Below, piece after piece: positions 3,578 to 38,100 of a DNA stretch of 64,000 nucleotides (its first letter is position 1; each line of letters begins with the position of its first letter). The translations under genes were made by a program, and so were the position numbers. The stretch is from Escherichia coli (GTDB taxonomy: Bacteria; Pseudomonadota; Gammaproteobacteria; Enterobacterales; Enterobacteriaceae), in NCBI RefSeq assembly GCF_003991155.1, contig NZ_CP031293.1. One strand, written 5' to 3'. The notes beneath the pieces are model-generated. The model had not been told where the DNA came from. It did not search any database and worked only from the letters and a program-made list of their open reading frames with translations.

Positions 3578-3677
3578 AAATTGGTGGTCATTCTGGTGGT
3601 CTTGACAATCTCGATTTTTTGTTTTAGCTTACCAATCAGCCAGTTAATGGCTACGGCGATCCCAGTCAGAGGAGCCC
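3578..3677 (+). repeat. att-like repeat copy A (about 70 bp of island arm plus the last ~17 nt of tRNA-Asn)
   Basis: ttggtggtcattctggtggtcttgacaatctcgattttttgttttagcttaccaatcagccagttaatggctacggcgatcccagtcagaggagcc; the 3' end matches the tRNA-Asn acceptor/T-arm end (cagtcagaggagcc). Confidence 0.75.
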
Positions 3678-3683
3678 AATTTC

Positions 3684-3710
3684 TGAAAAACCCGCTTTTA
3701 TAGCGGGCTT
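3684..3710 (-). terminator. Hairpin terminator downstream of cbl
   Basis: cccgcttttatagcggg stem with flanking A/T runs, immediately 3' of the cbl stop on the minus strand. Confidence 0.5.
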
Positions 3711-3714
3711 TTCG

Positions 3715-4665
3715 CTATATCTGATAATCAATTTCCTCTTCACTGTTTTCCATCACCTGGCGCTTGATATCCTCAACTGACAGTCCTGCATTACAAAGTT
3801 CCAGAAAGCGCCAGACATAGTTACGTTGAAGTTGCCCTCGCTTCAGTCCCAACCAGACAGTATTAGCATCGAAAAGATGCCTCGTATCCAGACGGATTAA
3901 ATTCTTTTCCTCTTGTTCACCACTGGATTGTTCGGCAACTAATCCGATCCCCAGCCCAAGAGCAACATAGGTTTTAATGACATCAGAATCCTGCGCACTT
4001 AATACAATATCTGCCAGCAAACCTTTGCGGGCAAATGCGTCATCAATACGTGAGCGCCCCGTAATCCCCTGTCGGTAAGTAATTAACGGCCACTTCGCTA
4101 TTGATTCCAGCGTCAACGGTGTAATTTGCGTCAAGGGATGATCGAGTGGAACAAGCAAACTATGGTGCCAACGAAACCACGGGAAGGCGACGAGCTGCGG
4201 GTCATTACTCAAACGCTCGCTGGCGATACCAATATCAGCTTCGCCATTTTGCAACAACGTCGCAATTTCCTGTGGTGTACCCTGGATTAGCTCCAGCCGA
4301 ACCTCCGGGAAAAGTTCGCGAAAAGCTTTAATGACCTCAGGCAAGCTATAACGTGCCTGAGTATGCGTCGTTGCAATAGTGAGAACGCCAGACGTATCGT
4401 TGGTAAACAGGTCTGCAAGCCGACGAACATTACTGGCTTCATTCAGAATACGTTCTGCAATGACCAGTAATGCTTTGCCCGGTTCAGTCATGCCCAGCAG
4501 TCGCTTACCTCGTCGAACAAATATTTCGATGCCAAGTTCATCCTCCAGTTCCCGAATATGACGGCTAACGCCTGACTGTGAGGTAAAAAGCATATTCGCA
4601 ACCTCTGTCAGGTTGTAATCCTGACGTGCAGCCTCGCGGATTATCTTTAGTTGTTGGAAATTCAC
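3715..4665 (-). CDS. cbl: LysR-family regulator Cbl (CysB-like)
   Basis: 316-aa ORF MNFQQLKIIREAARQDYNLTEVANMLFTSQSGVSRHIRELEDELGIEIFVRRGKR...; N-terminal HTH plus LysR substrate-binding region; sits next to nac as in E. coli. Confidence 0.85.
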   Translation of the reverse strand: MNFQQLKIIREAARQDYNLTEVANMLFTSQSGVSRHIRELEDELGIEIFVRRGKRLLGMTEPGKALLVIAERILNEASNVRRLADLFTNDTSGVLTIATTHTQARYSLPEVIKAFRELFPEVRLELIQGTPQEIATLLQNGEADIGIASERLSNDPQLVAFPWFRWHHSLLVPLDHPLTQITPLTLESIAKWPLITYRQGITGRSRIDDAFARKGLLADIVLSAQDSDVIKTYVALGLGIGLVAEQSSGEQEEKNLIRLDTRHLFDANTVWLGLKRGQLQRNYVWRFLELCNAGLSVEDIKRQVMENSEEEIDYQI

Positions 4666-4766
4666 GGTAAACTCCGGGCAGTTCAGATATCCCGTTATTG
4701 TTAAAGTCTAATGCCCGGCATAACAAATAATAAAAACCCGCATCTTATTCCATCCCGATATAACGC

Positions 4767-5684
4767 TTAGCTCACCAATTGCCACTGCCTTTTTTCCATC
4801 ACTGGAGAATTCATCACTGACATTAACAACTCTTTCACTGCTTGCGCCTGTGGTGATAAGTTCGCTCTGGCGGGTAAATTTAATGACAAAGAGAGACTCA
4901 TGGAAGGAGTGGTAATGCGTGACATCCAACCATTTACTGCGCCACATAACGAACGCGCGGCCGATTCGGGTAATACTGCAACGCCCATGCCGCTGGCAAT
5001 CGCTGCGGTAAGCGTGGCAATAGACTCAATTTCACCAATGACTTTTGCCGTGAGTCGCCGTAGGGAAAAAGCCTCATCAACACGAAGTCTAATAGCACTG
5101 TAATCACTTGGGAGAAAAAGGTTCATTTGCGCAATAGCATTAACATCAACGCTTTGCCCCGGGCAATCTTGAGTTCCTACCAGAAAAAGATCTTCTTTCA
5201 GTAAAGCCTGACTGGATACACCAGCCACAGGGGAATGCTCATAAATCACCGCCATATCGAGTTGGTGATTTATCAGTTTTTCGTTAAGTACTGCACCGCT
5301 ATTTTCATGAAGATAAATAACGACCTCCGGGAATTCAGCGCGAACCGCCTGTAATAAGGGCATGGTGATGGATGACGCAGCGGTTCCTGGCGCAAAGCCA
5401 ATCGAGACTTGCCCCGATAATGCCTGACCAACGTTATGCACCGCCAGTTGGGCCTGCTCACACTGACGTAAAATGGCCCGCGCATGGGTATAGAGAATTT
5501 TTCCGGCGTCAGTTGGCGTAACACCCCGTTTTGTGCGAATCAAAAGTTGTTGATTTAACTCACCTTCCAGTGTGGCAACCTGCTGACTGAGCGCTGGTTG
5601 TGCGATATGCAATACTTCAGCAGCCTGGGTCAGGCTACCAATATCTACAATTTTTACGAAGTATTTCAGGCGTCTGAAGTTCAT
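4767..5684 (-). CDS. nac: Nitrogen assimilation control protein Nac (LysR family)
   Basis: ORF 4767-5714; likely start at MNFRRLKYFVKIVDIGSLTQAAEVLHIAQPALSQQV... (5684); LysR HTH. Confidence 0.85.
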   Translation of the reverse strand: MNFRRLKYFVKIVDIGSLTQAAEVLHIAQPALSQQVATLEGELNQQLLIRTKRGVTPTDAGKILYTHARAILRQCEQAQLAVHNVGQALSGQVSIGFAPGTAASSITMPLLQAVRAEFPEVVIYLHENSGAVLNEKLINHQLDMAVIYEHSPVAGVSSQALLKEDLFLVGTQDCPGQSVDVNAIAQMNLFLPSDYSAIRLRVDEAFSLRRLTAKVIGEIESIATLTAAIASGMGVAVLPESAARSLCGAVNGWMSRITTPSMSLSLSLNLPARANLSPQAQAVKELLMSVMNSPVMEKRQWQLVS

Positions 5685-5961
5685 GTTGCCTCCGGTTTTT
5701 AAGAATCGGCCCAAGTGCCGCCATTACTTACAACCAGATTGCAAGATGCTTGCCAGTTTTATTTTGGCGTTGATGTACAAGCTAACCAACTGTCAAATAA
5801 GAGATTATGATAGTTTTGTCACTCGATCTTTTTATTAGAACTCGCGTTCTCTGCCCCAAGACATAAAGGTATGCACCACGATGGTTCATTACCAAAAAGA
5901 TTGAAAGCTCACCATTTTGTCGAAATTGGCAGCAAACAAACAAAAAAATGCATTTCACCCT

Positions 5962-5990
5962 TTGACATCACCATGCACTGCCATTAATAT
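5962..5990 (+). promoter_or_regulatory. Sigma70-like promoter for tRNA-Asn
   Basis: TTGACA (5962-5967), 17-bp spacer, TAATAT (5985-5990), about 18 bp upstream of the tRNA 5' end. Confidence 0.55.
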
Positions 5991-6008
5991 GCGCCCCGTT
6001 CACACGAT

Positions 6009-6084
6009 TCCTCTGTAGTTCAGTCGGTAGAACGGCGGACTGTTAATCCGTATGTCACTGGTTCGAGTCCAGTCAGAGGAGCCA
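6009..6084 (+). tRNA. tRNA-Asn (GTT anticodon)
   Basis: tcctctgtagttcagtcggtagaacggcggactgttaatccgtatgtcactggttcgagtccagtcagaggagcca; 76 nt, anticodon loop ctGTTaa. By recalled K-12 layout this is asnT-like by its downstream context and asnV-like by its upstream context. Confidence 0.95.
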
Positions 6085-6226
6085 AATTTTAGTCTTGAGA
6101 CATCTCTATAAGTCTCAGGATAGTTAAAAAACAAGAACTTATCTTTACCCGGTTGTCTCGCAAGAGGCTGCTGGGTTTCTTGACATCCATAGTTTTTAGG
6201 GGCCTAATCAGGGGCCTCACGGTTCG

Positions 6227-7513
6227 GTGAGCAAACGGAGCCCCCACGCTATGGCATTAACAGACACCGCTATTCGCAAGACTAAACCCTCTGACAAACC
6301 CTTCAAAATGACGGACAGTTCTGGACTGTACCTGTTGATCAAACCTAACGGCTCAAAACTCTGGTATATGAAGTACCGCATCGACGGCAAAGAGAAGAAA
6401 CTGGCCTTTGGCCCCTACCCGGAGATCTCCCTGTTGCAGGCTCGCCGCCTGCGCGAAACAGCACGCAATAACATTCATGCAGGCGTCGATCCGGCTGCGG
6501 TGAAGCAAACCGAGAAACAGAAGAGGAAAAACGGGCAGACGTTCAGCCAGATCGCCATCAACTGGCATAGCGAGCATAAACGCTGGTCTGAGCATTACGC
6601 GAAAACGGTTATGCGCAGGCTGGAAATGTACGTTTTCCCGGATATCGGGGATCGCCTTATCGAGGAGATCGAAACGGAGGATTTGTTATTCACGTTGCGC
6701 AAGGTAGAGAGTAAAGGCTTTCTGGAAATCACCGCGCGGCTGAAAAACTACGTCACCGATATCATGCACTACGCGATGAAAAAGAAACTGCTCAAAGCGA
6801 ACCCGGCGCTGTATCTGGACGGTGAGTTTGCCGCGCCAGAAACCAGTCACTACCCGGCCCTGTCGCTGGACAAATTGCCTGAGCTTTTAACCCGGACGGA
6901 TAGCTACTGCGGCAGGCTGCTGACAAAATACGCGCTTAAGCTGTCGCTGATTTTTTTTGTGCGCTCCAGCGAACTACGCTTTGCGCGCTGGAGTGAGATC
7001 GACTGGCAGCAGAAGTTATGGATAATCCCGGAAGAGCGCGAACAGATCGAAAACGTGCGCTTCTCTTACCGGGGGTCGAAAATGAAAATCCAGCACATTG
7101 TGCCGCTGTCGGATCAGGCGATTGCGATACTGAAACAGATCGAGGCCCTCTCCGGGCATCTGGCCTTTATTTTTCCCGGCGAATACGACCAGGACAAGTG
7201 CATGAGCGACAACACCGTCAACAAGGCGCTGCGCGTGATGGGTTACGACACCAAAAAGGATATCTGCGGGCATGGCTTCCGGGCAATGGCCTGTAGTGCG
7301 CTGAGCGAATCGGGATTATGGAGCAAAGAAGCCATTGAAAAGCAGATGAGCCACCAGGAAAGAAACAGCGTCCGTGCTGCCTATATTCACAAGGCTGAAT
7401 ATCTGGAGGAACGGATCGAGATGATGCAGTGGTGGTCAGATTATCTTGATGCAAACAGTGACGGGTATGTCTCGGCTTACCAGTATGCCCGCCGCCTAAA
7501 ACAGGCGTCGTAA
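6227..7513 (+). CDS. P4-type tyrosine integrase, island-associated
   Basis: 428-aa ORF directly 3' of tRNA-Asn. C-terminal ...HGFRAMACSALSESGLWSKEAIEKQMSHQERNSVRAAYIHKAEYLEERI... carries the catalytic H-x-x-R ... Y region. Possible alternative start at MALTDTAIRK (6251). Confidence 0.85.
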   Translation: MSKRSPHAMALTDTAIRKTKPSDKPFKMTDSSGLYLLIKPNGSKLWYMKYRIDGKEKKLAFGPYPEISLLQARRLRETARNNIHAGVDPAAVKQTEKQKRKNGQTFSQIAINWHSEHKRWSEHYAKTVMRRLEMYVFPDIGDRLIEEIETEDLLFTLRKVESKGFLEITARLKNYVTDIMHYAMKKKLLKANPALYLDGEFAAPETSHYPALSLDKLPELLTRTDSYCGRLLTKYALKLSLIFFVRSSELRFARWSEIDWQQKLWIIPEEREQIENVRFSYRGSKMKIQHIVPLSDQAIAILKQIEALSGHLAFIFPGEYDQDKCMSDNTVNKALRVMGYDTKKDICGHGFRAMACSALSESGLWSKEAIEKQMSHQERNSVRAAYIHKAEYLEERIEMMQWWSDYLDANSDGYVSAYQYARRLKQAS

Positions 7514-7636
7514 GTTAACAAAGCATCAGAGGGGGAAAAGGTATATTCCCCCTTTGTGCGTTTCAAATGTCGATGCTGACTGTAGCTTTTAAACTAAATT
7601 ACTGGATAAAAAGTAGCTTTTAAGCTACTATCTTTT

Positions 7637-7954
7637 ATGAAAACGATAAAGACCTACATAACTGCCGACGGGCGAGATCTGTATGCAGAGTTTTTTAAAG
7701 GGTTACGCGACCCCATCGCGAAGGCAAAGATCGCTTCCCGGATCAACCGGATGGCTTCGGACAATTTTGGCGACCATAAGCCCTGCCGGGAAGGTGTCTG
7801 GGAACTCAGGATAGATCAAGGGGCTGGGTATCGGGTTTATTACAGCCTGGTGGATGGAGAAGTCGTCCTGTTGATTCTGGCTGGCGACAAGCGTACGCAG
7901 GATGCAGATATAGATGAGGCTATTCGCTGCCTCAAAGACTATTTGAAGAGGTGA
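7637..7954 (+). CDS. Type II toxin, RelE/ParE superfamily (addiction module killer protein)
   Basis: 105-aa ORF MKTIKTYITADGRDLYAEFFKGLRDPIAKAKIASRINRMASDNFGDHKPCREGVWELRIDQGAGYRVYYSLVDGEVVLLILAGDKRTQ...; upstream of and 3 nt from an HTH antitoxin gene. Confidence 0.7.
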   Translation: MKTIKTYITADGRDLYAEFFKGLRDPIAKAKIASRINRMASDNFGDHKPCREGVWELRIDQGAGYRVYYSLVDGEVVLLILAGDKRTQDADIDEAIRCLKDYLKR

Positions 7955-7957
7955 TGT

Positions 7958-8266
7958 ATGGCGAAAGAACGTTTATATGATGATGTCATGGTGGAAGCGC
8001 TCCGGGAAGATCCTGCTTTTGCTCAGGCCTATCTGCATCAGGCATTTCTGGATATGGATGAAGATGGCGGTCAGGAAGCTTTTTTACTCGCGTTACGCCA
8101 TGTTGTTGAAGCGCGGGGAGGAATGGCGACGGTTGCCCAGAAAGCCGGTGTATCGCGTGAATCACTGTACCGCACGCTCTCCCCGACCGGCAACCCGACA
8201 CTGAAAACACTCCGCAGCGTCGTCCACGCCGCAGGTTTTCAGTTCTCTGCGCTGGCAAGTGCCTGA
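7958..8266 (+). CDS. HTH-type antitoxin (addiction module antidote protein)
   Basis: 102-aa ORF with C-terminal HTH (ATVAQKAGVSRESLYRTLSPTGNPTLKTLRSVVHAAG); adjacent to the toxin gene. Confidence 0.7.
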   Translation: MAKERLYDDVMVEALREDPAFAQAYLHQAFLDMDEDGGQEAFLLALRHVVEARGGMATVAQKAGVSRESLYRTLSPTGNPTLKTLRSVVHAAGFQFSALASA

Positions 8267-8388
8267 GTAGTTTTACATTTTGCAGCGATAATATAAATTG
8301 TAAATCATAATCCCTCCGTTGCTCTGTTCTGAGCAACGGATTACTTTGCATATTATCTGCTTTGCTAATCCATCAATTTTTAATTACC

Positions 8389-8682
8389 TTACATGGAAGC
8401 AACATACTCCATTAAATTATCTAATAAAAAATCAACCTTACTTATACCTTCATTTACATTATCGGCATAGATAAGTTCTACGAGCTTCATCCAACTTAAA
8501 TTGGAACGTACATTGTATTGTAAAAGGAGCCACTCTCTAAATCCCTCTAACATTTTACCGTCAAAGGAAAAATCCATCCCTAGTATAAAAGCCACAGTGT
8601 TTTCATAGTTATTTTCAAGTAGATACATATCGATATGCTTCTTAAAAAAAACAATTTTTTTTAGGAGGATATTTTTATTCAT
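8389..8682 (-). CDS. Putative immunity protein for the orphan Rhs C-terminal toxin
   Basis: 97-aa AT-rich ORF immediately 3' of the orphan Rhs toxin fragment (2-nt gap). Confidence 0.5.
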   Translation of the reverse strand: MNKNILLKKIVFFKKHIDMYLLENNYENTVAFILGMDFSFDGKMLEGFREWLLLQYNVRSNLSWMKLVELIYADNVNEGISKVDFLLDNLMEYVASM

Positions 8683-8684
8683 AA

Positions 8685-9299
8685 TTAAAATCCAAAATTG
8701 ATTGCATCAGGATATTGCCATAACTCTTTATATTCTTGTAATGGTAAACCGTCTGAGCCAGTAAAGGCATCATAAACCCGACCATCTTTTACTACAACGT
8801 CGTGATATGCCCAACCGGGATTCGTGCCTCTGTATTTACCTAATGAAGGAGCTCCGAAATCAGGTCTAATTCTTGCAATATCACCACCGATTTTCTTTTG
8901 TACCCACAATGCAAAATCTTCACAACCATTCCAGTTCTCAGAATTTTTAATATCCGCAGCCTTCCATACACAATCAGCGTTAAGGCCTAATGGATCAATC
9001 CAATTTAACGGATCTTTGACGTAACTGTATGGATTAATACCTCCCAACACCCCGGTTGGATCTGCCGAAATATACTGCGCAGTATCAGGATCATAGTACC
9101 GGAACCGGTTATAGTACAGTCCTGATTCGGCATCTTCATACTGCCCCGGAAAACGCAGGCGGCAGTCAGGTGCATCATCCCTGTTCCTGCCTTCTTCCCG
9201 GCCCCAGAGCTGTTGTTTTCCCCGCCAGACAATGGTGCCGCCCTCGGTCAGCAGTTCCTGGACACGGCCGACCGTATCCGTCACCGCGTAATGCAACAA
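8685..9299 (-). CDS. Orphan Rhs C-terminal fragment with a distinct toxin tip
   Basis: 204 aa: conserved end of the Rhs core (GRVQELLTE...RLRFPGQYED.ESGLYYNRFRYYDPDTAQYISADPTGVLGGINPYSYVKDPLNWIDPLGL) followed by a divergent ~95-aa C-terminus. About 300 bp (9000-9300) nearly identical to 10140-10440 in the main Rhs gene. Confidence 0.8.
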   Translation of the reverse strand: MLHYAVTDTVGRVQELLTEGGTIVWRGKQQLWGREEGRNRDDAPDCRLRFPGQYEDAESGLYYNRFRYYDPDTAQYISADPTGVLGGINPYSYVKDPLNWIDPLGLNADCVWKAADIKNSENWNGCEDFALWVQKKIGGDIARIRPDFGAPSLGKYRGTNPGWAYHDVVVKDGRVYDAFTGSDGLPLQEYKELWQYPDAINFGF

Positions 9300-9442
9300 G
9301 CCTTTCTCATAACGCGCCAGCGGTGTAAAACTTCCCGGTTCGTATATCCAGCGGATGGCGTTTTCATCATCTGGCTTGCCGTCCTGGCTGACCGGAATTT
9401 CTTGGTTAGATGACCGTCAGTTAAATGGATATTATCATTCCA

Positions 9443-9784: not shown

Positions 9785-9794
9785 ATCTTTTCCT

Positions 9795-13992: not shown

Positions 13993-15244
<1,252 letters not shown>

Positions 15245-16717: not shown

Positions 16718-16841
16718 CTAATACCAAAATAACTCTATGATTAAAAAGGCTGATATATATGCTGGAAGTAGACAGACTACCGGAAACAGTACGACGGTGA
16801 CAGGGTGAACCAAAGGGTTAGGCGCATTTTAAAAAGGTGGT

Positions 16842-16928
16842 CATTCTGGTGGTCTTGACAAACTCGATTTTTTGTTTTAGCTTATCAATCAGCCTGTTAA
16901 AGGCTAAGGCGATCCCAGTCAGAGGAGC
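16842..16928 (+). repeat. att-like repeat copy B (island right end next to yeeJ)
   Basis: aaaaaggtggtcattctggtggtcttgacaaactcgattttttgttttagcttatcaatcagcctgttaaaggctaaggcgatcccagtcagaggagc; sits where asnT lies in recalled K-12 order (about 250 bp upstream of yeeJ). Confidence 0.75.
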
Positions 16929-17168
16929 AAAATTCTAAAAATTCGCTTTTTTAGCGCAATATCACTGACCTTAGTTGAGCATTGCTTTTTAATGGATAGC
17001 GGGTTTTTGACATCTTAAGCGCCCTCGACCTTTATGGTTGAGGGCGTTTTGCTATGAACGCCATCACCATTTTCCCCTCGATTATAAAACTTGAGTAATT
17101 CAGTAGTCTCCCCTCTTGCAACTCACACCCAAAACTGCTTAACGAAAAGTTATTAATTTTCAATCATA

Positions 17169-25223
<8,055 letters not shown>

Positions 25224-29723: not shown

Positions 29724-29784
29724 TAAGTTCTGTTCCTTTTTATCAGGAATAGATGTGAAGGATTTAGTAAGTCATCCAGCAAAT

Positions 29785-29812
29785 AGCCTGCAATAAAGCA
29801 GGCTGTTTGCTT
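29785..29812 (+). terminator. Rho-independent terminator after amn
   Basis: agcctgcaataaagcaggct hairpin followed by gtttgctt. Confidence 0.5.
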
Positions 29813-30064
29813 CCTGGGGCGGATACGAGTTTTATTATAGCCTTAATGATTTCCATATATTAAAAGCAAGTATGCTTTCAAAACACAATTATAAAAAAAT
29901 CCGCCAACGACATTAGTTTTTATGAGATTAAATATAATATTATGGCTTTAGAATATTTTTATTTCTAATAGACGAGATTTTTCCTGTTATGATATAATAT
30001 GCCGAATTAACACATGTTAACGATTTACCAGTAATGTAAATAAATTTTCGAGGAGATCATTCCA

Positions 30065-30781: not shown

Positions 30782-31238
30782 TTATATTTTAAAGAAATCT
30801 GTCTTTATGGCAGATTTCTTTAATCTCATATAATTCTTATAAAGAATATAATATCCAGCTCGTCATATTGATTATAAAACCCACGCTCCCAGAGAAATAA
30901 TATTTATTAAAATTCCAGGCCTTCTTTTTCTGATTACAGAAGGCAAAGTGGCAATTACGTATAGTTTCCCGATAAAGACGTGACAGCAACATCCCGCATA
31001 AGGCATTTTTCTCTTTATCTTTGTACGGTGCTTCATGGAACAGAGTTTTTGACCTTGCGAATCGTGATGTCTGTTGGGGGGCAATTTGCTCACTGAAGCG
31101 TGAGACTCGATTAAGCACACGAAACACAGAAATCAAAAAACCCGGTCACTTTTTTACAAGGTAACCGGGTAAAAATGATTTTATTTTTTAACTGTCTTGA
31201 GACTCATAGAGATGTCTCAAAACTAAAATTTGGCTCCT

Positions 31239-31338
31239 CTGACTGGGATCGCCGTAGCCTTTAACAGGCTGATTGATAAGCTAAAACAAAAAATCGAGTT
31301 TGTCAAGACCACCAGACTGACCACCATTTTTATTAGCG
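31239..31338 (-). repeat. att-like repeat copy C (tRNA-Asn 3' fragment plus island arm) bounding the defence-like cassette
   Basis: Minus-strand reading: tggtggtcagtctggtggtcttgacaaactcgattttttgttttagcttatcaatcagcctgttaaaggctacggcgatcccagtcagaggagccaaa. The adjacent 31196-31238 matches the hairpin downstream of the tRNA at 6085-6120. Confidence 0.75.
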
Positions 31339-31496
31339 TATATTTTCGCTATGGGCATACTGTCTATTCATTTAACACATGCACGTCTTATTAGAGCGAA
31401 AAGTGTACATTTCAAAAATGCTTTAATAGGATTTCTAGCTATGATGCTAAAGTATCACTACTTTTATGGATATAAACTAGACAGGAATGATGTGTT

Positions 31497-32414
31497 ATGA
31501 AGTCCAGATTTGGACCAAATGGGGTGCATTTATTCGACCGAAATACAGGTCTGAACGTCCTCCTGGAGGAGTTACGCCCAAAGGAATCTGTTTGGTCCAT
31601 TTCTCCACGCCAGGTCTCGATTGCACTTACCAATCTTTGTGACCTTCGCTGCGCACATTGTTTTGCGCCCAAGCATAAGGCATTGCTACATACTGACCAA
31701 GTGCTTACTTGGTTAAAAGAACTGGATACTGAAGGATGCCTCGGTATCGGATTTGGTGGTGGAGAACCAACACTGCATCCTGATTTCGTCGAAATATGTA
31801 AACGGGCTGCTGGGGAAACTCATCTTGCAGTCACATTTACGACTCATGGTCACCGTCTGACCCAGCCATTGGTTAAAAAACTCAAAGGCTCGATCCACTT
31901 TGCGCGCATTAGCGTTGACGGGATAGGTCATACCTACGAAGAACAACGTGGAAGGCAGTTTTCAAGTTTACTCAGAGGCATTGAGTCGATCGCGAAATTG
32001 TCGTCTTTTGGGATCAATGTCGTGATAAACGAGCGTACGATTTTTGAGCTTGACGCAGTGGCTGAGCTGGCGCAACAGTTTGGTGCTAGTGAATTGCTGT
32101 TGTTGCCTCAGCAAGCAACTAATGCAGTCGCAAGTATGGACGAATTGGTCGGCCGAGAGCTTCAAAACTGGGTCTCTAGCTATAGAGGAAAGGTTCGACT
32201 TGCAGTAAGTGAGGTGGGAGCGTCAGGGCTCCCCATATGTGACCCTCTTCCTAATGAAACAGGCCTTCAAGCCTACGCGCATATAGACGCTTCCGGGATA
32301 TTGCGCACGAGTTCTTATTCAACCACAGGTATGGATATTGAAGAAACTGGTGTTATGTCCGCGCTTAAACGGCTTAGAAATACCTTAGAGATTAAACAAG
32401 GGACACAATCATGA
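31497..32414 (+). CDS. Radical SAM enzyme (single 4Fe-4S cluster type, no SPASM extension)
   Basis: 305-aa ORF; CDLRCAHCF (CxxxCxxC, nt 31635-31658), GFGGGEPTLHP (GGEP SAM-binding motif), ARISVDG; stop overlaps the next start (ATGA at 32411-32414). Confidence 0.8.
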   Translation: MKSRFGPNGVHLFDRNTGLNVLLEELRPKESVWSISPRQVSIALTNLCDLRCAHCFAPKHKALLHTDQVLTWLKELDTEGCLGIGFGGGEPTLHPDFVEICKRAAGETHLAVTFTTHGHRLTQPLVKKLKGSIHFARISVDGIGHTYEEQRGRQFSSLLRGIESIAKLSSFGINVVINERTIFELDAVAELAQQFGASELLLLPQQATNAVASMDELVGRELQNWVSSYRGKVRLAVSEVGASGLPICDPLPNETGLQAYAHIDASGILRTSSYSTTGMDIEETGVMSALKRLRNTLEIKQGTQS

Positions 32415-32818
32415 AAATTTGGAACGGATACGGATCTGAGCATTCGATGAACTTAGTTCTCATCGGAAAATTCAAGCAAGAGCAAGATGCAGTGAAGGTC
32501 GAGAAGGATATTAAAACGCTCAGTACTCAGGCTGAGAAAGATGAATGTTACTCGATCCCTTTTGATGAGCCAGAGAATCAACGGTTTTCATATGAAATGC
32601 TCTCATTACTATGCAGCCTAAAACTCCACACTTTAGGACCAACCGATCTTGGTCAATTGGTGTCAGATCATCATCTAGATCGCGAAGGCGATAGAATAAC
32701 AATAACTACTGATGAGGCAGAGGTATCCGCGTTCGTGAAGCTGTTTGTCGAGGCTGGAGCAAAGGTCGAGATTTTCTCAGCGCATGACTATCCGTCCGAT
32801 TCCAGCGATGCCAGTTGA
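32411..32818 (+). CDS. Hypothetical 135-aa protein, translationally coupled between the radical SAM and NTPase genes
   Basis: Start overlaps the radical SAM stop; its own stop TGA overlaps the TTG at 32815. No recognisable motifs. Confidence 0.6.
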   Translation: MKIWNGYGSEHSMNLVLIGKFKQEQDAVKVEKDIKTLSTQAEKDECYSIPFDEPENQRFSYEMLSLLCSLKLHTLGPTDLGQLVSDHHLDREGDRITITTDEAEVSAFVKLFVEAGAKVEIFSAHDYPSDSSDAS

Positions 32819-35800
32819 CAGAGGATGCATTGATGCCTGAAGTAAATTGGAAAGTATTCAACGAACTGCCCGGTGCAGCAGATGTGAACTTCGAAAACCT
32901 TTGCCGCGCTCTGGTACGCCGACACTATGGTCGTTTCGGTCGCTTTAAGCAACTCGCAAATCAGCCTGGGGTGGAGTTTCACCTCGAGCTGACGGAGCCT
33001 TGTGATCTCGGTGCGCCACCAGGTTGGATTGGTTGGCAATGCAAGTGGTATGAACTGGTGAATGGACAAGATTTGGGAGCCTCCCGCCGCAACAAGATCA
33101 TCGAAGGTATCGAAAAGACGCGTAAGCATGTCCCTGGAGTGACCAATTGGAAGCTTTGGACTCATCACACGTTAACAAAAGGTGATCAAGAGTGGTTTTT
33201 CGCGCTAGAGCAAGACCGCTTCCCAGAATTGAAGTTAGAACTGCTCACAGCTACGGATATCGAAGATCTTTTGGTCGGACCGGGAGCGCTTTTACGAGAA
33301 ACCTACTTTGGTGAACTGGTTCTAACTCCAGAGCTAATTGCTGAGCAGTATAAGCTTGCAGTGGCCCCATTTAAGAACCGCTACCAGCCAGATGTTCATG
33401 TAGCGGTGGGGGCTGAGGAGAATATATTCAGGCATCTGTGCAGCCAAAACGCATGGGAATCTCTGGAAGAACTCTCAAACGCTTTAAAAAAGAATCATAC
33501 GAGCATTGCTTCGGTTACTGAGCAACTCAAAACTGAGCTCAGGGCTGAAGTTGAATTACTCCTGGCCCGGGTTATTGGGTTGACTGAGTTTATTGATGGC
33601 TTACACGCGGCGCTCGGCAAAGGTGACTTTAACTCTGTATATCAAGCGTTGGTTTCAAATCCGCGTCAGCCGGTACGTTATGACAGGCTACTTTCGAAAT
33701 TGCGTGGAGCGCGCTTTGACGGGGCTCCGTTAACCGCTAATTTGGTTGCAGATATCCACGCGGTTTCGTCAGTTCTCCGCAGTCTGGAGCAATCGATTAG
33801 TGCTCGGGCGGTTGCTGTTCTTGCGGCGGCGGGGGAAGGTAAGTCTGAACTTGCAGTCAAGGTAACACAGCCAGAAGGGGCGTTCCTAGGGGGAATCCTC
33901 CTATTAGGCAAGAATCTTCATTCAGGCCAGGGGCTTGATGATCTCGTATCTGCCTTCAAGATTTCTGGGAGACCAGCAGAAAGTTTTGACCGCCTGATTG
34001 AGGCCGTAGATGCGGCAGGCCAGCGTGCAGGTAAACGCATACCTATTGTTATTGACGGTCTGAATGAGGCGGAAGATCCGAGAAATTGGAAGGATGAATT
34101 ATCCCGAGTGGATGAGCTTCTAAAGAATTTTCCTTATGTCTTGTTAGTTGTCACTCTTCGCAATGAATTCGCCCAGATGTGTCTGCCTGAGGGGTTTCCC
34201 CAAGTTGAACATAATGGGTTTCAGGAAGATCCGAAGACAGCATTTGACAAGTATTTTGAGTACTACAAGATCGATGCTACTGATGCGGATCTACCAGTCG
34301 AACTCTTGCAGCACCCCTTAACACTGAGAATTTTTTGCGAAGTAGCAAATTCTCCTCGTCAGCATATTGTCGGAGTGGAAGCATTGCCCCGTTCGCTTGC
34401 AAGCCTGTTCGAAGCTCACTTTAACAAGGTTGCAGCACGAGTCGCTGAGCTTTCACCGACGATGCATCGCATTTATCAAGATGACGTTCAGGATGCACTA
34501 CTAACGATCGCGGGTCTTCTTTGGGATAACAATGCGAGAAGTGTGGATTTTCAGGCTACACGGATGGCAGTTCGGGATATGGGGTGGGACGACAGTATTA
34601 TTCGTGCACTGGAGTCTGAAGGCATTCTCGTTCGGACTATTTCTCCAGAAGGTAGGCAAGGAGTTGCGTTTGCATACGACCTAATGGCCGGACATATGAT
34701 GGCGCGCAACCTGCTTATGAAGCCTGAACTGGTGCAATGGCTACAAAGCGATGAAGGGAACGCAAAATTTAAATCTCATGGACCTGATTCGCATACCTTC
34801 GCTTATGACGTATTACGGGCTCTGGTTGATCTGTATCCGCAACACTCTGGTAGGCGGCAGCTTTGGCAAGACTTGTCGGATGATATACTCGTTATGAACG
34901 CTCTGCTATTGACGACGCAATCGGATCCAAGATATATCGGGCGGGCTACTGTTGAACGATTTGCTCAAGCTATGCAGGAGTCGAAGCGGTTTGCACAACT
35001 TGCCTTCGAGAGACTACGGAGCACTAGGGCTGCGCTGGCACATCCGTTTGATATGAGCTTTTTGCATGATGTGCTAATGGCTATGTCCAACACTCAGCGC
35101 GATCTTTTTTGGTCAGAGTGGATTCGTCAGAAATCTGAACAAGTTAAAGACGACTTAAAATTCTTGTCGACGAGATGGAAATCGGGTCATCTGGATGAGC
35201 GTGAACTTCGAAGAGTTCGCTGGGTAATGTGGACACTGACGACGACATCCAGAGCTTTGCGGGATATGGCTACCAAAGCCCTGTATGAATTTGCCATCAG
35301 GCGGCCAGAAGAGTTTTTCCGGTTAGCGACGGAGACAATTGTAGTTTCAGACCCATATGTCCCCGAGCGAGTGTTCGCCGCAGCCTACGGTGCAGTCCTG
35401 ACCACTTGGTCGGATATCGATGCGGTAGAGTTACATGATGCGTTGCCACGGTTCGCTCGTGAGATTTACCAAACCATGTTTGCACCTGGCGCTACAGCCC
35501 CTACCTGGCATGCATTACATCAGCAGTACTGTTTGGGAATCATTGCCATTGCGAGGATGGTCGATCCAAATTGTTTTTCAGAGGACGAAGCTGTTTATCT
35601 TCTTCCGCCATTTAGCCATCTGCCTAACGTATTTGAAAGCATTCAACCGTACGATCCAGAGATGATTGGGCGAGCGGAGAGCGCAGCGATTCAAATGGAC
35701 TTTGGTAACTATACGATTGGTGGACTTATTCCAGACAGAGCGAACTACGATGACAGTAATCCGGAGTACCAACAGGTGTTGCAGGCCATTGTTTCTCGAA

Positions 35801-36891
35801 TGCTGATGCTTGGTTATGACCCTGAGCAGTTTGAAGCTGTTGATCGGCAAATGTACTCCGGTTCTCGTATGGGAGATGACAAGCACAAAATCGATCGATA
35901 TGGCAAAAAGTACGGCTGGATAGCTTACTTCGAGATGTGGGGGATACGATACGCGCAGGGCCTCCTTTCCGAAGAACGCAGTGCTCGCCCATCAGATGCT
36001 GATATCGATCCAACGTTTCCGCAAAAAGTAGAGAGTATTAGTTTGTCACTCCCAGTCTTATTTAACGATCCGTCTGTGGATGATGGTGACTGGATCGTGG
36101 GAGGCCCGCTACCTGACTACCGTAGCATCCTTGAGATTACGGAGGTTGATGGTCTGACGGGGCCATGGATCCTACTTGACGGTTTTGTTGAGCAAAATGC
36201 TACCTCGGATGACCGACAGATTTTCACTTTCCTGCGAGGAGTATTCGTAGATAGCCAAGAAGTTGACAATCTATGTAGGTTGTTCATTGATCTTGAATAT
36301 CCTGGCAATAGCGCCATCCCTGATGCTCCTGGCTACTATTACACCTATGCGGGTGAGATGCCTTTCCCGACTATTCCGGGGCTGCTAGTCGCTAATGAAC
36401 AAGAGGATGATAGCGATGAAAATTTGGTGTTCGCAGAAAGATGGTCAGGCAATGGCGTTGCGGTAGATATCACAGTGCAGGACTACAACTGGGAGAGCTA
36501 CCATAGCGTGGAGAACCAAAGCAGCGGTGCGAGCCTGCCCTCAAAGCAACTTTGTGAGGCTTTGAATCTCAGATACTGTGCAAACAAATGGGATTTGCAT
36601 GATGCTGCAGGTGTAGCGTCACTTTACCGCAAAATTGACGAAAATGGTTCGGACGTCAGTGGCTCTGTCAGCTATCTACGTCGTGATCTACTTGACCGCT
36701 ATTTGATGCAATCCGGTAAGGTATTGGTATGGCTTATGTGGGGAGAGCGTGGTTTTCATTACCGGTCCAACAAGACACGCAATTTGCACAGGTATTACGT
36801 GAATCACCAACATATTCACAAGCGTATTCATATCCATCAGATAGCTTCGAGTACTAGTAACCCAAATATTGCGGATGGAGTCGCTATATGA
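32815..36891 (+). CDS. NACHT-like STAND NTPase with an N-terminal Mrr-like nuclease-fold domain and a long C-terminal region (NLR/Avs-like)
   Basis: 1358-aa ORF (TTG at 32815 or ATG at 32833). N-terminus FENLCRALVRRHYG...EPCDLGAPPGWIGWQCKWY resembles an Mrr-cat type D...QxK nuclease. Walker A VLAAAGEGKSE (nt 33823-33849, aa ~340); Walker B IPIVIDGLNEAED (aa ~410) then LLVVTLR. About 850 aa of C-terminus without enzymatic motifs. Confidence 0.8.
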   Translation: MTEDALMPEVNWKVFNELPGAADVNFENLCRALVRRHYGRFGRFKQLANQPGVEFHLELTEPCDLGAPPGWIGWQCKWYELVNGQDLGASRRNKIIEGIEKTRKHVPGVTNWKLWTHHTLTKGDQEWFFALEQDRFPELKLELLTATDIEDLLVGPGALLRETYFGELVLTPELIAEQYKLAVAPFKNRYQPDVHVAVGAEENIFRHLCSQNAWESLEELSNALKKNHTSIASVTEQLKTELRAEVELLLARVIGLTEFIDGLHAALGKGDFNSVYQALVSNPRQPVRYDRLLSKLRGARFDGAPLTANLVADIHAVSSVLRSLEQSISARAVAVLAAAGEGKSELAVKVTQPEGAFLGGILLLGKNLHSGQGLDDLVSAFKISGRPAESFDRLIEAVDAAGQRAGKRIPIVIDGLNEAEDPRNWKDELSRVDELLKNFPYVLLVVTLRNEFAQMCLPEGFPQVEHNGFQEDPKTAFDKYFEYYKIDATDADLPVELLQHPLTLRIFCEVANSPRQHIVGVEALPRSLASLFEAHFNKVAARVAELSPTMHRIYQDDVQDALLTIAGLLWDNNARSVDFQATRMAVRDMGWDDSIIRALESEGILVRTISPEGRQGVAFAYDLMAGHMMARNLLMKPELVQWLQSDEGNAKFKSHGPDSHTFAYDVLRALVDLYPQHSGRRQLWQDLSDDILVMNALLLTTQSDPRYIGRATVERFAQAMQESKRFAQLAFERLRSTRAALAHPFDMSFLHDVLMAMSNTQRDLFWSEWIRQKSEQVKDDLKFLSTRWKSGHLDERELRRVRWVMWTLTTTSRALRDMATKALYEFAIRRPEEFFRLATETIVVSDPYVPERVFAAAYGAVLTTWSDIDAVELHDALPRFAREIYQTMFAPGATAPTWHALHQQYCLGIIAIARMVDPNCFSEDEAVYLLPPFSHLPNVFESIQPYDPEMIGRAESAAIQMDFGNYTIGGLIPDRANYDDSNPEYQQVLQAIVSRMLMLGYDPEQFEAVDRQMYSGSRMGDDKHKIDRYGKKYGWIAYFEMWGIRYAQGLLSEERSARPSDADIDPTFPQKVESISLSLPVLFNDPSVDDGDWIVGGPLPDYRSILEITEVDGLTGPWILLDGFVEQNATSDDRQIFTFLRGVFVDSQEVDNLCRLFIDLEYPGNSAIPDAPGYYYTYAGEMPFPTIPGLLVANEQEDDSDENLVFAERWSGNGVAVDITVQDYNWESYHSVENQSSGASLPSKQLCEALNLRYCANKWDLHDAAGVASLYRKIDENGSDVSGSVSYLRRDLLDRYLMQSGKVLVWLMWGERGFHYRSNKTRNLHRYYVNHQHIHKRIHIHQIASSTSNPNIADGVAI

Positions 36892-37052
36892 GTTACGACT
36901 TCAGAAATCTTTCATCCGCAAACTTTGAGGATCTTGTGCGGGATCTTATCGAAAAAGAAGAAGGGTTCGCTTCGAAGCATTCTCTGTGGGGGCTGATAAT
37001 GATATTGATGGCCGACACGCACATGCTGGAGGGAATGTCAGTTTATAGGTAA
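36888..37052 (+). pseudogene. Short ORF resembling an Mrr-like N-terminal fragment (possible remnant of a further gene)
   Basis: 54 codons overlapping the NTPase stop (ATGA): MSYDFRNLSSANFEDLVRDLIEKEEGFASKH...; the FEDLV..L motif echoes the N-terminus of the NTPase protein; followed by ~1 kb with no ORF. Confidence 0.3.
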
Positions 37053-38005
37053 AACCTTATGAAGGGGCGTCGTTTAGTATACTGATGGCTATTATGAAGT
37101 GTGAGTGGTTGTCTAAAGATAAGCTAGCCCTCACACGCTGTATCAAGCGACCTCTTGTTAGCTTACTCCAGCTAGCAAGAGTAAACTTTCCCCACTCATA
37201 GGGCTATGTTTGAAGTCCGAGTCGGAAATTGGGGGGCAGAAGACATAAAAGGTCTCCTTAAGAAGTCTTCTTGTCTGTACAAAAACTCTTATTTTGACAA
37301 AGAGCATTGTAGTTATTAACAGGCTGATTAATAAATTTAAAAATAAGTCGTCAGGAACACCAGATTAGCTACCCAAATTCTCATGCCGTGGAAGCGGAAG
37401 AAAAATACTCCCCTGAATATCTTCATATCGGATATACATAATAAGCTTGAGGTTGTATATTTGAAGAATTGAGTAGCCAGAGCCTTGTTGACATAAAGCG
37501 ACACGAACAACATGTTACTTAAAATATCACGAGTATATATTCAGACTTGTTTATGTTGCGACATGGATTCTACAGGCAGCTGGCTGAAACAGTGAGTCAG
37601 AAAAATTTACAGGAGCGCCATAGTCATTAATGGATATCCGTAATATGCTGATGCAAAAGGGTAAGGAGTTTGCCGGTAATCTGCGGTGTTAGACGACAAT
37701 TACAAAACGACCTTAGGCGTCAATTACCGCTGAAAAAAGTGACAGATCACTTTCTATAAAATGCTGCCGTATGACCGACAGATTTATTCCGCTTTATAGC
37801 CATGACTGTTCGGTGCTCACTTCGCTGCGCTCCGCCTCAGTCCTGCCTAAAAAGCGTTGCAGGTTAGTTTGTATCGGCCTAATGAAAGGCTGTTTTAGCG
37901 AAGCGTAAATGTGACATCTTATCTGGTCTAATCTCTTTGCGATAATTGACGCAAAAGCATGGGCTGTAATTGTCACGCAATACTGCGGCAAGTCTCATGA
38001 TGATG

Positions 38006-38100
38006 CCTCTGACAGGGATCTCCGTAGCCATTAACTGGTCGATTGGTAAGCTAAAACAAAAAAATTGAATTTGTCAAGACAGCCATAATGACTACCATTT
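38006..38100 (-). repeat. att-like repeat copy D (degenerate), internal boundary of the composite island
   Basis: Minus-strand reading: tggtagtcattatggctgtcttgacaaattcaatttttttgttttagcttaccaatcgaccagttaatggctacggagatccctgtcagagg; the tRNA-derived end is truncated and diverged. Confidence 0.65.

What the first reader, a model, noticed from the sequence alone, without database searches (positions are those of the whole stretch)
3578..38100. Four copies of a ~90-bp att-like element mark stacked island insertions at tRNA-Asn genes
Copies at 3578-3677 (+), 16842-16928 (+), 31239-31338 (-) and 38006-38100 (-) share about 70 bp of conserved sequence, including two GGTGGTC-like direct repeats and a TTGACA, TAGCTT promoter-like pair, fused to the last ~17 nt of tRNA-Asn. 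This is what the distal junction of P4-type integrase islands looks like, and it implies at least four related integration events, two of them in tandem. The promoter-like hexamers leave open that the element is transcribed.
Basis: seen in the sequence. Interest (0 to 1): 0.6.

Follow-up and report, generated by a model that had tools for sequence, protein, structure and literature searches.

The report
Genomic-island end sites at tRNA-Asn
The four repeats are the far-end attachment arms of mobile genomic islands inserted at asparagine-tRNA genes, and each carries the outward-facing promoter that related islands use to switch on their integrase after they circularise; this is real but is a kind of element already described.

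Summary
There are exactly four copies of a ~95-100 bp element: c1 3578-3677 (+), c2 16831-16929 (+), c3 31231-31331 (-) and a decayed c4 38004-38101 (-). Each has two GGTGGTC repeats, TTGACA, a 17-nt spacer, TAGCTT, a GCCA..TGGC palindrome and the last 14-16 nt of tRNA-Asn.

Compared with E. coli K-12, homology to the island-free chromosome starts exactly at the tRNA fragment. The flanks are asnU for c1, asnT for c2 and asnW for c3. K-12 lacks the arm, and only 719 of 5426 complete E. coli genomes carry it.

The same arm ends islands with unrelated cargo (colibactin, type VI secretion (T6SS)/Rhs, TIR, CHAT, Avs). It also occurs in 63 loci from species-representative genomes across many genera of Enterobacterales.

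Primers published for the ICEKp1 attR/attP site match this element family. A 2026 NAR paper showed that the ICEKp1 and ICEEc1 3' ends carry a sigma-70 promoter. That promoter drives the integrase gene (int) only after circularisation, while the tRNA-Asn terminator is displaced to the island's far end.

These are new members, a diverged subtype, of a known attachment-arm and promoter module. Interest is low to moderate. It remains open whether the short RNA predicted in the integrated state has any function.

The parts
3578..3677 (+). Copy c1. This is the distal (attR) arm of the ~45-kb T6SS/Rhs island that starts at asnT upstream of the window. Repeats 3583-3589 and 3595-3601, -35 TTGACA 3602-3607, -10 TAGCTT 3625-3630, palindrome 3639-3651, tRNA-Asn 3' fragment 3662-3676.
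   Evidence: The flank from the fragment onward is 93.9% identical to the K-12 asnU downstream flank.
3691..3707 (+). Displaced native tRNA-Asn (asnU) terminator hairpin directly after c1. It would end any transcript from the c1 promoter after about 75-80 nt.
   Evidence: Terminator scan. K-12 asnU flank. Fold of 3637-3715 shows a 5' hairpin plus terminator, z = -2.76.
6009..6084 (+). Intact tRNA-Asn at the proximal (attL) end of island II. Its 5' side is the K-12 asnV side (nac).
6085..6250 (+). Integrase-proximal arm and int leader of island II. It has stem-loops and two GGGGCCT repeats at a 12-bp period (6199-6205 and 6211-6217) just upstream of int.
   Evidence: Sequence, fold. Corresponds to the ICEKp1 region the paper'-FSint.
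6251..7513 (+). Integrase of island II, 420 aa, P4-type domain set.
   Evidence: Pfam Arm-DNA-bind_3 + Phage_int_M + Phage_integrase. NF007246 hit. 54% identical to the asnW island integrase.
16831..16929 (+). Copy c2, the distal arm of island II (int, RelE/antitoxin, Rhs, IS3, PAAR). Repeats 16836-42 and 16848-54, -35 16855-60, -10 16878-83, palindrome 16892-904, tRNA fragment 16915-28.
   Evidence: The flank is 96.2% identical over 186 nt to the K-12 asnT downstream flank leading to yeeJ.
31231..31331 (-). Copy c3, the distal arm of island III and the outer end of the tandem array at asnW. Repeats 31319-25 and 31307-13, -35 31301-06, -10 31278-83, palindrome 31257-69, full 16-nt tRNA fragment 31231-46.
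   Evidence: The flank is 94.7% identical over 469 nt to the K-12 asnW downstream flank.
31085..31230 (-). Fossil of an integrase-proximal arm directly after c3, so this junction looks like attP. It has a perfect terminator-like hairpin and about 10 codons resembling an int N-terminus. K-12 has it too.
   Evidence: 75% identity over 153 nt to the island II 5' arm. Sequence. K-12 asnW flank. tblastn finds no longer int remnant.
31339..38003 (-). Island III, the inner member of the tandem pair. Cargo is radical SAM, DUF6375 and an Avs2-like protein on the + strand. No integrase.
38004..38101 (-). Copy c4, the decayed distal arm of island IV at the internal junction of the tandem array. Repeats mutated (38090-96 and 38078-84), -35 38072-77, 18-nt spacer, -10 38048-53, tRNA fragment truncated (38006-16).
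   Evidence: No K-12 homology on either side.
47842..49104 (-). Integrase pseudogene (internal stop) of island IV.
49105..49265 (-). Integrase-proximal arm of island IV, of the ICEKp1/HPI type. It carries GGTGGTCAGATCTGGGGTCA (49134-49153), the same bipartite repeat as in the distal arms, about 40 bp before the int start.
   Evidence: Sequence. Same motif in Serratia, Citrobacter and Symbiopectobacterium arms and in the ICEKp1 primer GAAAAATTGGTGGTCAAATCTGGG.
49266..49341 (-). Intact tRNA-Asn (asnW) at the proximal end of the tandem array IV + III.
51090..51165 (+). Intact tRNA-Asn with no island, an internal control. Its 5' side is the K-12 asnU side (yeeO) and its 3' side is the asnV terminator and ldtA. 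No arm sequence is present.

Best explanation
Each copy is the distal attachment arm (the attR side, equal to one arm of attP) of a genomic island that a P4-type tyrosine integrase inserted into the 3' end of a tRNA-Asn gene. The arm belongs to the integration module shared by the Yersinia high-pathogenicity island (HPI), ICEKp1, ICEEc1 and colibactin (pks) group of asn-tRNA islands.

The arm contains, in order:
(a) Two GGTGGTC repeats at a 12-bp period. These are probably arm-type binding sites for the integrase N-terminal domain (inferred).
(b) An outward-facing sigma-70 promoter, TTGACA-17 nt-TAGCTT.
(c) A short conserved stretch with a palindrome. This probably holds a core-type or accessory-protein site and forms the 5' end of the transcript (inferred).
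(d) The 14-16 nt copy of the tRNA 3' end, where strand exchange occurred.

When the island excises and circularises, this arm is joined to the integrase-proximal arm. The promoter then reads through the crossover site into int and raises integrase for re-integration. This was shown experimentally for ICEKp1 and ICEEc1. It is inferred here from homology and geometry.

While integrated, int depends on read-through from the tRNA-Asn promoter, because the tRNA terminator has been moved to the far end of the island. The distal promoter then fires outward into that terminator (c1), into neighbouring DNA (c2), or into the next island of a tandem array (c3, c4).

The four copies record at least four insertions at three asn loci, later reshuffled by recombination between the att and tRNA repeats.
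For: Junction structure:
- K-12 homology begins exactly at the tRNA fragment for c1 (asnU flank), c2 (asnT flank) and c3 (asnW flank). The arm itself has no match in the K-12 asn region.
- P4-type integrases lie next to the full tRNAs.

Not chromosome backbone:
- 719 of 5426 complete E. coli genomes carry the arm, at 1-4 places each.

Module independent of cargo:
- The same arm ends the colibactin island and CHAT/helicase, TIR and Rhs islands.
- It occurs in 63 loci from species-representative genomes of Citrobacter, Klebsiella, Serratia, Pectobacterium, Erwinia, Pantoea, Rahnella and others. The search pattern did not include the hexamers or the first repeat.

Conservation pattern in 64 distinct copies:
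- First repeat: 1.7-2.0 bits.
- TTGACA: 1.9-2.0 bits.
- First 9 spacer positions: 0.2-0.9 bits.
- TAGCTT: 1.6-2.0 bits.
- Element length is constant in all but three loci, which puts the spacer at 17 nt.

Identity with the studied system:
- ICEKp1 primers F6, F_attR/attP and the attR/P probe match the family. Exact matches are found in 6, 2 and 42 of 66 copies, and there are 1-8 substitutions in c1-c3.

Experiments in PMC13023037:
- The 3' end carries a sigma-70 promoter whose -35 and -10 mutations abolish activity.
- int is transcribed from it in the excised form.
- Tasn is displaced to the ICE 3' end.
- The same holds for ICEEc1 of E. coli.
- The ICEclc Pcirc precedent is described in the review read.

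Natural attP-like junctions:
- c3 here, and loci L009, L061 and L066, place the arm directly upstream of an int leader.

Arm-site idea:
- The integrase has an Arm-DNA-bind_3 domain.
- The same bipartite GGTGGTC/GGGGTC motif recurs on the int-proximal arm of ICEKp1-type islands.
Against: - No expression, excision or binding data exist for these particular copies.
- TAGCTT matches the -10 consensus at 3 of 6 positions, and the scanner does not call the promoter.
- The ICEKp1 paper places the 5'-RACE end 15 bp upstream of the attP core. That is inside the palindrome and about 9 nt downstream of where TTGACA/TAGCTT would start transcription. I could not read which hexamers they mutated, because they are shown only in a figure.
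- The window copies are a diverged subtype, with 5-8 mismatches to the 30-nt ICEKp1 attR primer.
- Islands with the island II-type integrase carry a different repeat (GGGGCCT) on their int-proximal arm. This weakens the idea that one protein binds both arms.
- The island IV int is a pseudogene, island III has no int, and c4 is decayed. Part of the array is therefore no longer mobile.
Confidence: 0.85

Rival explanations
1. The conserved blocks are only recombination-protein binding sites: integrase arm and core sites, plus sites for IHF or an excision directionality factor. The TTGACA/TAGCTT pair is then not the working promoter. Any transcription would start from a different, weaker promoter nearer the core, as the published 5'-RACE position might suggest.
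For: The published 5' end lies 15 bp upstream of the attP core. TATTAG, 7 nt upstream of it in ICEKp1-type arms, could serve as a -10. TAGCTT is a poor -10. The region between TAGCTT and the core is as conserved as the hexamers. AATCAGCCWGTTA is one mismatch from the IHF consensus WATCAANNNNTTR (my reading of the sequence).
Against: The TATTAG positions are among the least conserved downstream columns (0.6-1.1 bits for the first positions). They read AATCAG in all four window copies. No conserved -35 lies 16-18 nt upstream of them, because that position falls in the variable spacer. A perfect -35, a fixed 17-nt variable spacer and the retained T-12, A-11 and T-7 are the classic promoter signature. 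The paper reports that its -35 and -10 point mutants lose activity. The 5'-RACE used did not distinguish primary from processed ends.
Confidence: 0.1
2. The element is chiefly a small-RNA gene. Promoter, 5' hairpin, tRNA-Asn 3' tail and terminator would make a ~75-80 nt RNA that acts in trans in the integrated state. Its position at island ends would be secondary.
For: The promoter fragment alone is active in reporters in ICEKp1, so the integrated copy should fire outward. In c1 and in most of the 63 loci a canonical terminator follows within ~15-45 nt. The predicted c1 RNA folds as a 5' hairpin plus terminator. One compensatory change (GCCA/TGGC to GCCT/AGGC in c2 and c3) and several G-U-compatible changes occur in the hairpin.
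Against: No Rfam family matches at gathering or relaxed thresholds. The hairpin is almost invariant, so covariation support is negligible, and three variants break a pair. The 3' part of the RNA differs by insertion site, because it is host flank. c2, c3 and c4 lack a canonical terminator right after the fragment. The recombination and int-promoter role already explains the conservation.
Confidence: 0.04
3. The copies are ordinary conserved tRNA-flanking chromosome sequence, or decayed tRNA-Asn pseudogenes with their own promoters.
For: The last 14-16 nt are tRNA-Asn sequence, and CGA of the T-loop is also retained just upstream.
Against: The arm has no similarity to the tRNA body or to the upstream promoters of the three real tRNA-Asn genes. 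ARAGORN and the Rfam tRNA model do not call it. It is absent from K-12 and from the empty asn site in the window. It is present in only 13% of E. coli genomes.
Confidence: 0.01

Closest known systems
3' end conserved region and P3'end promoter of ICEKp1 (and ICEKp1-14, ICEEc1), described in PMC13023037, NAR 2026
   Same: The same sequence family: GGTGGTCATTCTGGTGGTC, TTAGCTTA, GCCAGTTAnTGGC, AAGGCGATC and the tRNA-Asn 3' repeat. The published primers and probe match. The geometry is the same: the arm faces outward, opposite a P4-type int that sits ~160 bp after tRNA-Asn, and Tasn is displaced to the far end.
   Different: The window copies are a diverged subtype. They read CCAATCAGCC instead of CTTATTAGCC and have a T-rich spacer. 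They belong to non-conjugative T6SS/Rhs and defence islands. The integrase is only 54% identical to the ICEKp1/HPI-like one at asnW, and its int-proximal arm differs. Promoter activity here is inferred, not measured.
Pcirc of ICEclc (Pseudomonas), from Sentchilo et al. 2003 as summarised in PMC5812530
   Same: An outward-facing constitutive promoter at the end opposite int. It becomes fused upstream of int only after circularisation and favours re-integration.
   Different: No sequence relationship. The target is tRNA-Gly, the integrase family differs, and ICEclc also has its own Pint.
asn-tRNA-targeting islands: Yersinia HPI, the colibactin (pks) island, and ROD21-like islands
   Same: A 16-17 bp tRNA-Asn direct repeat, a P4-type integrase, and occupation of any of the asn genes. 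The arm is found at the clbA end of the pks island. The family is named in work cited.
   Different: Cargo differs. I did not check whether the ROD21 attR or the Yersinia HPI right end carries this exact arm.
Lambda/P4-style attP with arm-type integrase sites
   Same: Repeated short motifs on both arms, and an integrase with an arm-DNA-binding N-terminal domain.
   Different: Binding to GGTGGTC has not been shown. The repeats abut the -35, which suggests a regulatory role as well.

Membership tests
Distal (attR) junction of a P4-type integrase island at tRNA-Asn | A direct repeat of the tRNA 3' end at the far end, in the same orientation as the intact tRNA at the integrase end | tested here: met
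   c2 pairs with tRNA 6009 (+). c3 and c4 pair with tRNA 49266 (-). c1 pairs with asnT 45 kb upstream of the window.
Distal (attR) junction of a P4-type integrase island at tRNA-Asn | Native chromosomal flank resumes at the repeat, and the arm is absent from island-free sites | tested here: met
   K-12 homology starts at the fragment for c1, c2 and c3. The arm has no match in the K-12 asn region. The empty site at 51090 lacks it. 719 of 5426 genomes carry it. c4 is an internal tandem junction without host flank.
Distal (attR) junction of a P4-type integrase island at tRNA-Asn | A tyrosine integrase of the P4 type adjacent to the intact tRNA | tested here: met
   Arm-DNA-bind_3 + Phage_int_M + Phage_integrase. 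Annotated integrases at 6251-7513, at 47842-49104 (pseudogene) and after asnT.
Distal (attR) junction of a P4-type integrase island at tRNA-Asn | Integrase-dependent excision to attP + attB | not testable with these tools
   Needs PCR or long-read evidence for circular junctions. A 10.4-kb Klebsiella 'plasmid' record with the arm proved not to be an attP circle.
Circularisation-dependent int promoter (ICEKp1 P3'end / ICEclc Pcirc type) | A sigma-70 promoter at the island end opposite int, facing outward | tested here: inconclusive
   Sequence-level support is strong: a perfect -35, a 17-nt spacer, and a -10 with T-12, A-11 and T-7. The hexamers are near-invariant and the spacer is variable across 64 copies. 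However, the scanner does not call it, activity was not measured here, and the published TSS is offset by ~9 nt.
Circularisation-dependent int promoter (ICEKp1 P3'end / ICEclc Pcirc type) | After joining of the ends, the promoter is co-oriented with int and directly upstream of it | tested here: met
   In every island the arm and int have the same orientation. Natural attP-like junctions put the arm, the core and an int leader in series at c3, L009 and L066.
Circularisation-dependent int promoter (ICEKp1 P3'end / ICEclc Pcirc type) | Sequence homology to the experimentally tested promoter region | tested here: met
   Primer and probe matches.
Circularisation-dependent int promoter (ICEKp1 P3'end / ICEclc Pcirc type) | tRNA terminator displaced to the distal end | tested here: met
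   A canonical hairpin plus T-run follows c1 and most of the 63 loci. For c2 the native asnT flank is present, but the scan calls no terminator.
Known small-RNA family | A match to a curated RNA family, or covariation-supported structure | tested here: not met
   No Rfam hit at gathering or E<=10 thresholds that is credible. Hairpin pairs are nearly invariant, with one compensatory change.
tRNA gene or pseudogene | A cloverleaf, or similarity to the tRNA beyond the 3' end | tested here: not met
   ARAGORN and the Rfam tRNA model find only the three real genes. Alignment shows identity only over the last 14-16 nt plus CGA of the T-loop.

The most novel reading that the evidence does not exclude
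In the integrated state, each copy is a constitutively firing orphan transcription unit: arm promoter, 5' hairpin, the last ~15 nt of tRNA-Asn, then the displaced tRNA terminator. The resulting ~75-80 nt RNA may have a function of its own. Two possibilities are acting in trans on the tRNA-int leader of the same island family (the leader whose stem-loops attenuate int), or driving neighbours such as yeeJ downstream of c2. With four copies in one genome, dosage would matter.
Probability: 0.08. Interest if true: 0.55.

Novelty: new member of a known kind. Interest (0 to 1): 0.22.

Why it matters
The arm is a precise, easily searched marker for the far boundary of asn-tRNA islands across Enterobacterales. 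It shows that T6SS/Rhs effector islands and anti-phage islands (Avs2, TIR, CHAT) use the same integration and promoter-switch module as the yersiniabactin and colibactin elements.

Practical consequences:
- Island boundaries and tandem arrays can be called from sequence alone.
- Every integrated copy leaves an outward promoter that can affect neighbouring genes.
- A tandem junction permanently recreates the 'excised-state' promoter-int fusion.
- Several att and tRNA repeats in one region promote rearrangements of core genes, seen here as the cbl-nac block moved to the asnT locus.

None of this changes current understanding. It extends a mechanism published in 2026 to more islands.

Tried and rejected
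- Anticodon-arm mimic. The c1 loop GTTAA resembles the tRNA-Asn anticodon loop, but other copies have CTTAC or TTTAT. Rejected.
- RNA hairpin supported by covariation. The pairs are almost invariant. There is one compensatory change, a few wobbles and three disruptions. This is insufficient.
- T-arm-like pairing of ACTGG with CCAGT. It is possible in ICEKp1-type copies, but again invariant and absent as a 5-bp helix in the c1-c4 subtype.
- Promoter scanner. It does not report TTGACA/TAGCTT because of its rule of at least 4 of 6 matches per hexamer.
- Phage or satellite origin. There were no hits in IMG/VR with the repeat-plus-hexamer pattern and none in 50,697 phage records.
- Plasmid hits. 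There are five, mostly large records that may be chromosomal. The one I opened, a 10.4-kb circular Klebsiella record, has arm + core + Tasn + host-like DNA. It is not an attP circle.
- A longer int remnant after c3, or between c4 and the island III cargo. tblastn found nothing.
- The paper's suggestion that the transcribed arm relieves the leader terminator. Minimum-free-energy folds of the reconstructed island II leader were uninformative.
- The exact hexamers mutated in the paper. They could not be recovered from the text or supplement.

Full report
**Observation**

The window is E. coli. It is 100% identical to strain STEFF_1, NZ_CP048609.1 2964243-3028242. It covers the asn-tRNA cluster.

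ARAGORN and Rfam find three intact tRNA-Asn genes, at 6009 (+), 49266 (-) and 51090 (+). Alignment of the four reported stretches confirms a shared element. A local BLAST of c1 finds exactly three further copies at 89%, 93% and 86% identity, plus only the 3' ends of the real tRNAs. A 39-nt degenerate pattern built from the four copies hits only these four places, against zero expected in shuffles.

Every copy has the same order of parts:
- two GGTGGTC repeats 12 bp apart
- TTGACA
- a 17-nt spacer (18 nt in c4)
- TAGCTT
- about 8 nt
- a GCCA-N5-TGGC palindrome
- (A/C)GGCGATC
- the last 14-16 nt of tRNA-Asn

c4 is decayed. Both repeats are mutated and the tRNA fragment is cut to CCTGTCAGAGG.

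**These are island/chromosome junctions**

I fetched the K-12 asn region and compared it with the copies.
- The arm has no match in K-12.
- K-12 homology begins exactly at the tRNA fragment.
- The c1 flank is the asnU downstream flank, running into cbl (93.9%).
- The c2 flank is the asnT downstream flank, running to yeeJ (96.2% over 186 nt).
- The c3 flank is the asnW downstream flank (94.7% over 469 nt).

The tRNA at 51090 carries no island and no arm. P4-type integrases lie ~165 bp after the intact tRNAs, at 6251-7513 and at 47842-49104 (a pseudogene). A third follows asnT, 45 kb upstream of the window. The first has Arm-DNA-bind_3, Phage_int_M and Phage_integrase domains. It is 54% identical to the second.

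Only 719 of 5426 complete E. coli genomes hold the arm, at one to four places each.

**The arm is a module that travels with different cargo**

In other E. coli strains the same arm ends several unrelated islands:
- the colibactin island, next to clbA and abutting ldtA
- a CHAT/helicase-nuclease island
- a TIR-domain island
- an Rhs island

I scanned one genome per species with a pattern that specified only the second repeat and the tRNA fragment. It returned 63 loci in Citrobacter, Klebsiella, Raoultella, Enterobacter, Serratia, Rahnella, Pectobacterium, Dickeya, Brenneria, Lonsdalea, Erwinia, Pantoea and others. Element length was almost always the same. In most loci a canonical tRNA terminator follows the fragment within about 10 nt.

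**Conservation pattern**

Across 64 distinct copies, per-column information content was as follows.

| Part | Bits per column |
|---|---|
| First repeat (unselected by the search) | 1.7-2.0 |
| TTGACA | 1.9-2.0 |
| First nine spacer positions | 0.2-0.9 |
| TAGCTT | 1.6-2.0 |

Element length is constant in all but three loci, which puts the spacer at 17 nt. Two near-invariant hexamers at a fixed distance across a free spacer is the signature of a promoter. This holds even though TAGCTT keeps only T-12, A-11 and T-7, and the simple scanner does not call it.

The palindrome and the stretch up to the tRNA fragment are also nearly invariant. Because they barely vary, they give no real covariation evidence for an RNA structure. 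I found one compensatory change (c2 and c3), a few G-U-compatible changes and three disruptions.

**Link to experiments**

A 2026 NAR paper on ICEKp1 (PMC13023037) reports the following:
- Integration displaces the tRNA-Asn terminator to the 3' end of the element, and int is co-transcribed from the tRNA promoter.
- The leader stem-loops attenuate that transcript.
- In the excised form, int is transcribed from a sigma-70 promoter at the 3' end. Mutations in its -35 and -10 boxes abolish activity.
- ICEEc1 of E. coli and ICEclc behave alike. The ICEclc Pcirc precedent is summarised in PMC5812530.

The paper's primers show that its 3' end is this element:
- GATTGGTGGTCATTCTGGTG
- GGTTTAGCTTACTTATTAGCCAGTTATTGG
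- the attR/attP probe CAAAGGCGATCCCAGTCAGAGGAGCCA

They match 6, 2 and 42 of my 66 copies exactly. They differ from c1-c3 at 1-8 positions. The int-proximal arm of the asnW island here also matches the ICEKp1 leader primers.

**Mechanism: what is shown and what is inferred**

Shown here:
- junction anatomy
- co-orientation of the arm with int
- distribution across strains and genera
- the conservation pattern
- homology to the tested region
- natural attP-like junctions in which arm, core and an int leader lie in series (c3; L009, L061, L066)

Shown elsewhere for homologues: promoter activity and its use for int after circularisation.

Inferred:
- The c1-c3 promoters are active.
- The GGTGGTC repeats are integrase arm-type sites. 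Support: the integrase has an arm-binding domain, and the same bipartite motif GGTGGTCAnnnyTGGGGTCA recurs ~40 bp before int in ICEKp1-type arms. Caveat: island II-type arms carry GGGGCCT repeats instead.
- GGCGATCC next to the crossover region is a core-type site.

**One discrepancy**

The paper puts the 5'-RACE end 15 bp upstream of the attP core. That is inside the palindrome, and about 9 nt downstream of the start expected from TTGACA/TAGCTT.

A -10 that would fit that end (TATTAG) falls partly on poorly conserved columns and has no conserved -35. It reads AATCAG in all four window copies. The RACE procedure did not separate primary from processed ends. I could not read which hexamers were mutated.

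I therefore favour TTGACA/TAGCTT as the family-wide promoter and treat the published end as possibly processed. This needs a direct test.

**Architecture of the window**

Upstream of the window lies mtfA-asnT-int and a ~45-kb T6SS/Rhs island. That island ends in c1. The order within the window is then as follows:
- cbl-nac
- the tRNA at 6009 (its 5' side is the K-12 asnV side)
- island II (int, RelE/antitoxin, Rhs, IS3, PAAR), ending in c2
- yeeJ through yeeN
- a fossil int-proximal arm that K-12 also carries
- c3
- island III (radical SAM, DUF6375, an Avs2-like protein; no int)
- c4
- island IV (Rhs fragments, IS3, ash, HigA, int pseudogene)
- asnW, then yeeO
- an empty hybrid tRNA whose 5' side is asnU and whose 3' side is asnV
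- ldtA

In addition, the att partners of asnT, asnU and asnV have been exchanged. This moved cbl-nac into the asnT locus between two islands.

**Rivals**

- Pure protein-binding sites with a different promoter: about 0.1.
- A dedicated small-RNA gene: about 0.04. The RNA probably exists, but the known role already explains the conservation, and there is no Rfam match.
- Chromosome backbone or tRNA pseudogene: refuted.

**Verdict**

The finding is real and correctly interpreted. It belongs to a known module, so these copies are new members of a known kind: a diverged subtype on T6SS/Rhs and defence islands. The residual novelty is whether the orphan transcript made in the integrated state does anything.

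Noticed in passing
window 3715-6084 (cbl, nac, tRNA-Asn), with flanks at c1, c2 and 51090-51165: The core genes cbl-nac lie between asnU and asnV in K-12. Here they sit at the asnT locus, between the T6SS island (ending in c1) and island II. The old site is a hybrid empty tRNA, with an asnU 5' side and an asnV 3' side. This fits excision of an asnU-asnV circle and its re-insertion at a tandem island junction. About 30 complete genomes share the c1-cbl junction.
   Followed up: partly
window 31085-31230 (-); K-12 NC_000913.3 downstream of asnW (L071 about 17576-18027): K-12 and this strain both carry a fossil of an island's integrase-proximal arm directly after asnW. It has a leader hairpin, a perfect terminator-like stem-loop, and about 10 codons resembling an int N-terminus. 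The 'island-free' asnW site is therefore itself an old scar.
   Followed up: partly
window 31497-36891 (+): The island III cargo looks like an anti-phage operon. It has a radical-SAM protein with sub-threshold viperin similarity (PADLOC pVip, 5e-20), a DUF6375 protein, and a 1352-aa Avs2-like protein (PADLOC Avs2, 7.5e-116, but below the NCBIfam cut-off). I did not check whether the rSAM-DUF6375-Avs2 combination has been described.
   Followed up: partly
window 14063-14185 (+) and 41832-41954 (+): Both Rfam isrC hits (145 bits) coincide with the 5' ends of two identical IS3-family copies (transposase WP_152895938.1, at 14067-15244 and 41836-43013). The 'isrC' model here is detecting an insertion-sequence end.
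   Followed up: no
window 43725-45825 (+): Rfam isrK (43725-43803), C4 antisense RNA (43825-43912) and EFASI (45697-45825) lie in island IV around an ash-family gene and a HigA antitoxin. This is the regulatory RNA set typical of P4/CP4-like elements.
   Followed up: no
window 16929-17243 (+): No canonical terminator is called between the c2 promoter or tRNA fragment and yeeJ. There is only a weak hairpin at 17196-17213. The outward promoter of island II may therefore read into the adhesin gene yeeJ.
   Followed up: no
window 6199-6217 (+) and 49134-49153 (-): Both integrase-proximal arms carry a pair of short repeats at a 12-bp period just before int: GGGGCCT x2 in island II, and GGTGGTCA/GGGGTCA in island IV. 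They mirror the repeats of the distal arms, and in RNA they form part of the last leader stem-loop.
   Followed up: partly
L013, L036, L041, L052 (Dickeya, Symbiopectobacterium, Pectobacterium, Citrobacter): In several genera the arm, core and tRNA terminator are followed within ~100 bp by another P4-type integrase gene with a partial leader. Integrase genes can therefore lie downstream of the displaced terminator. The arrangement was not resolved.
   Followed up: no
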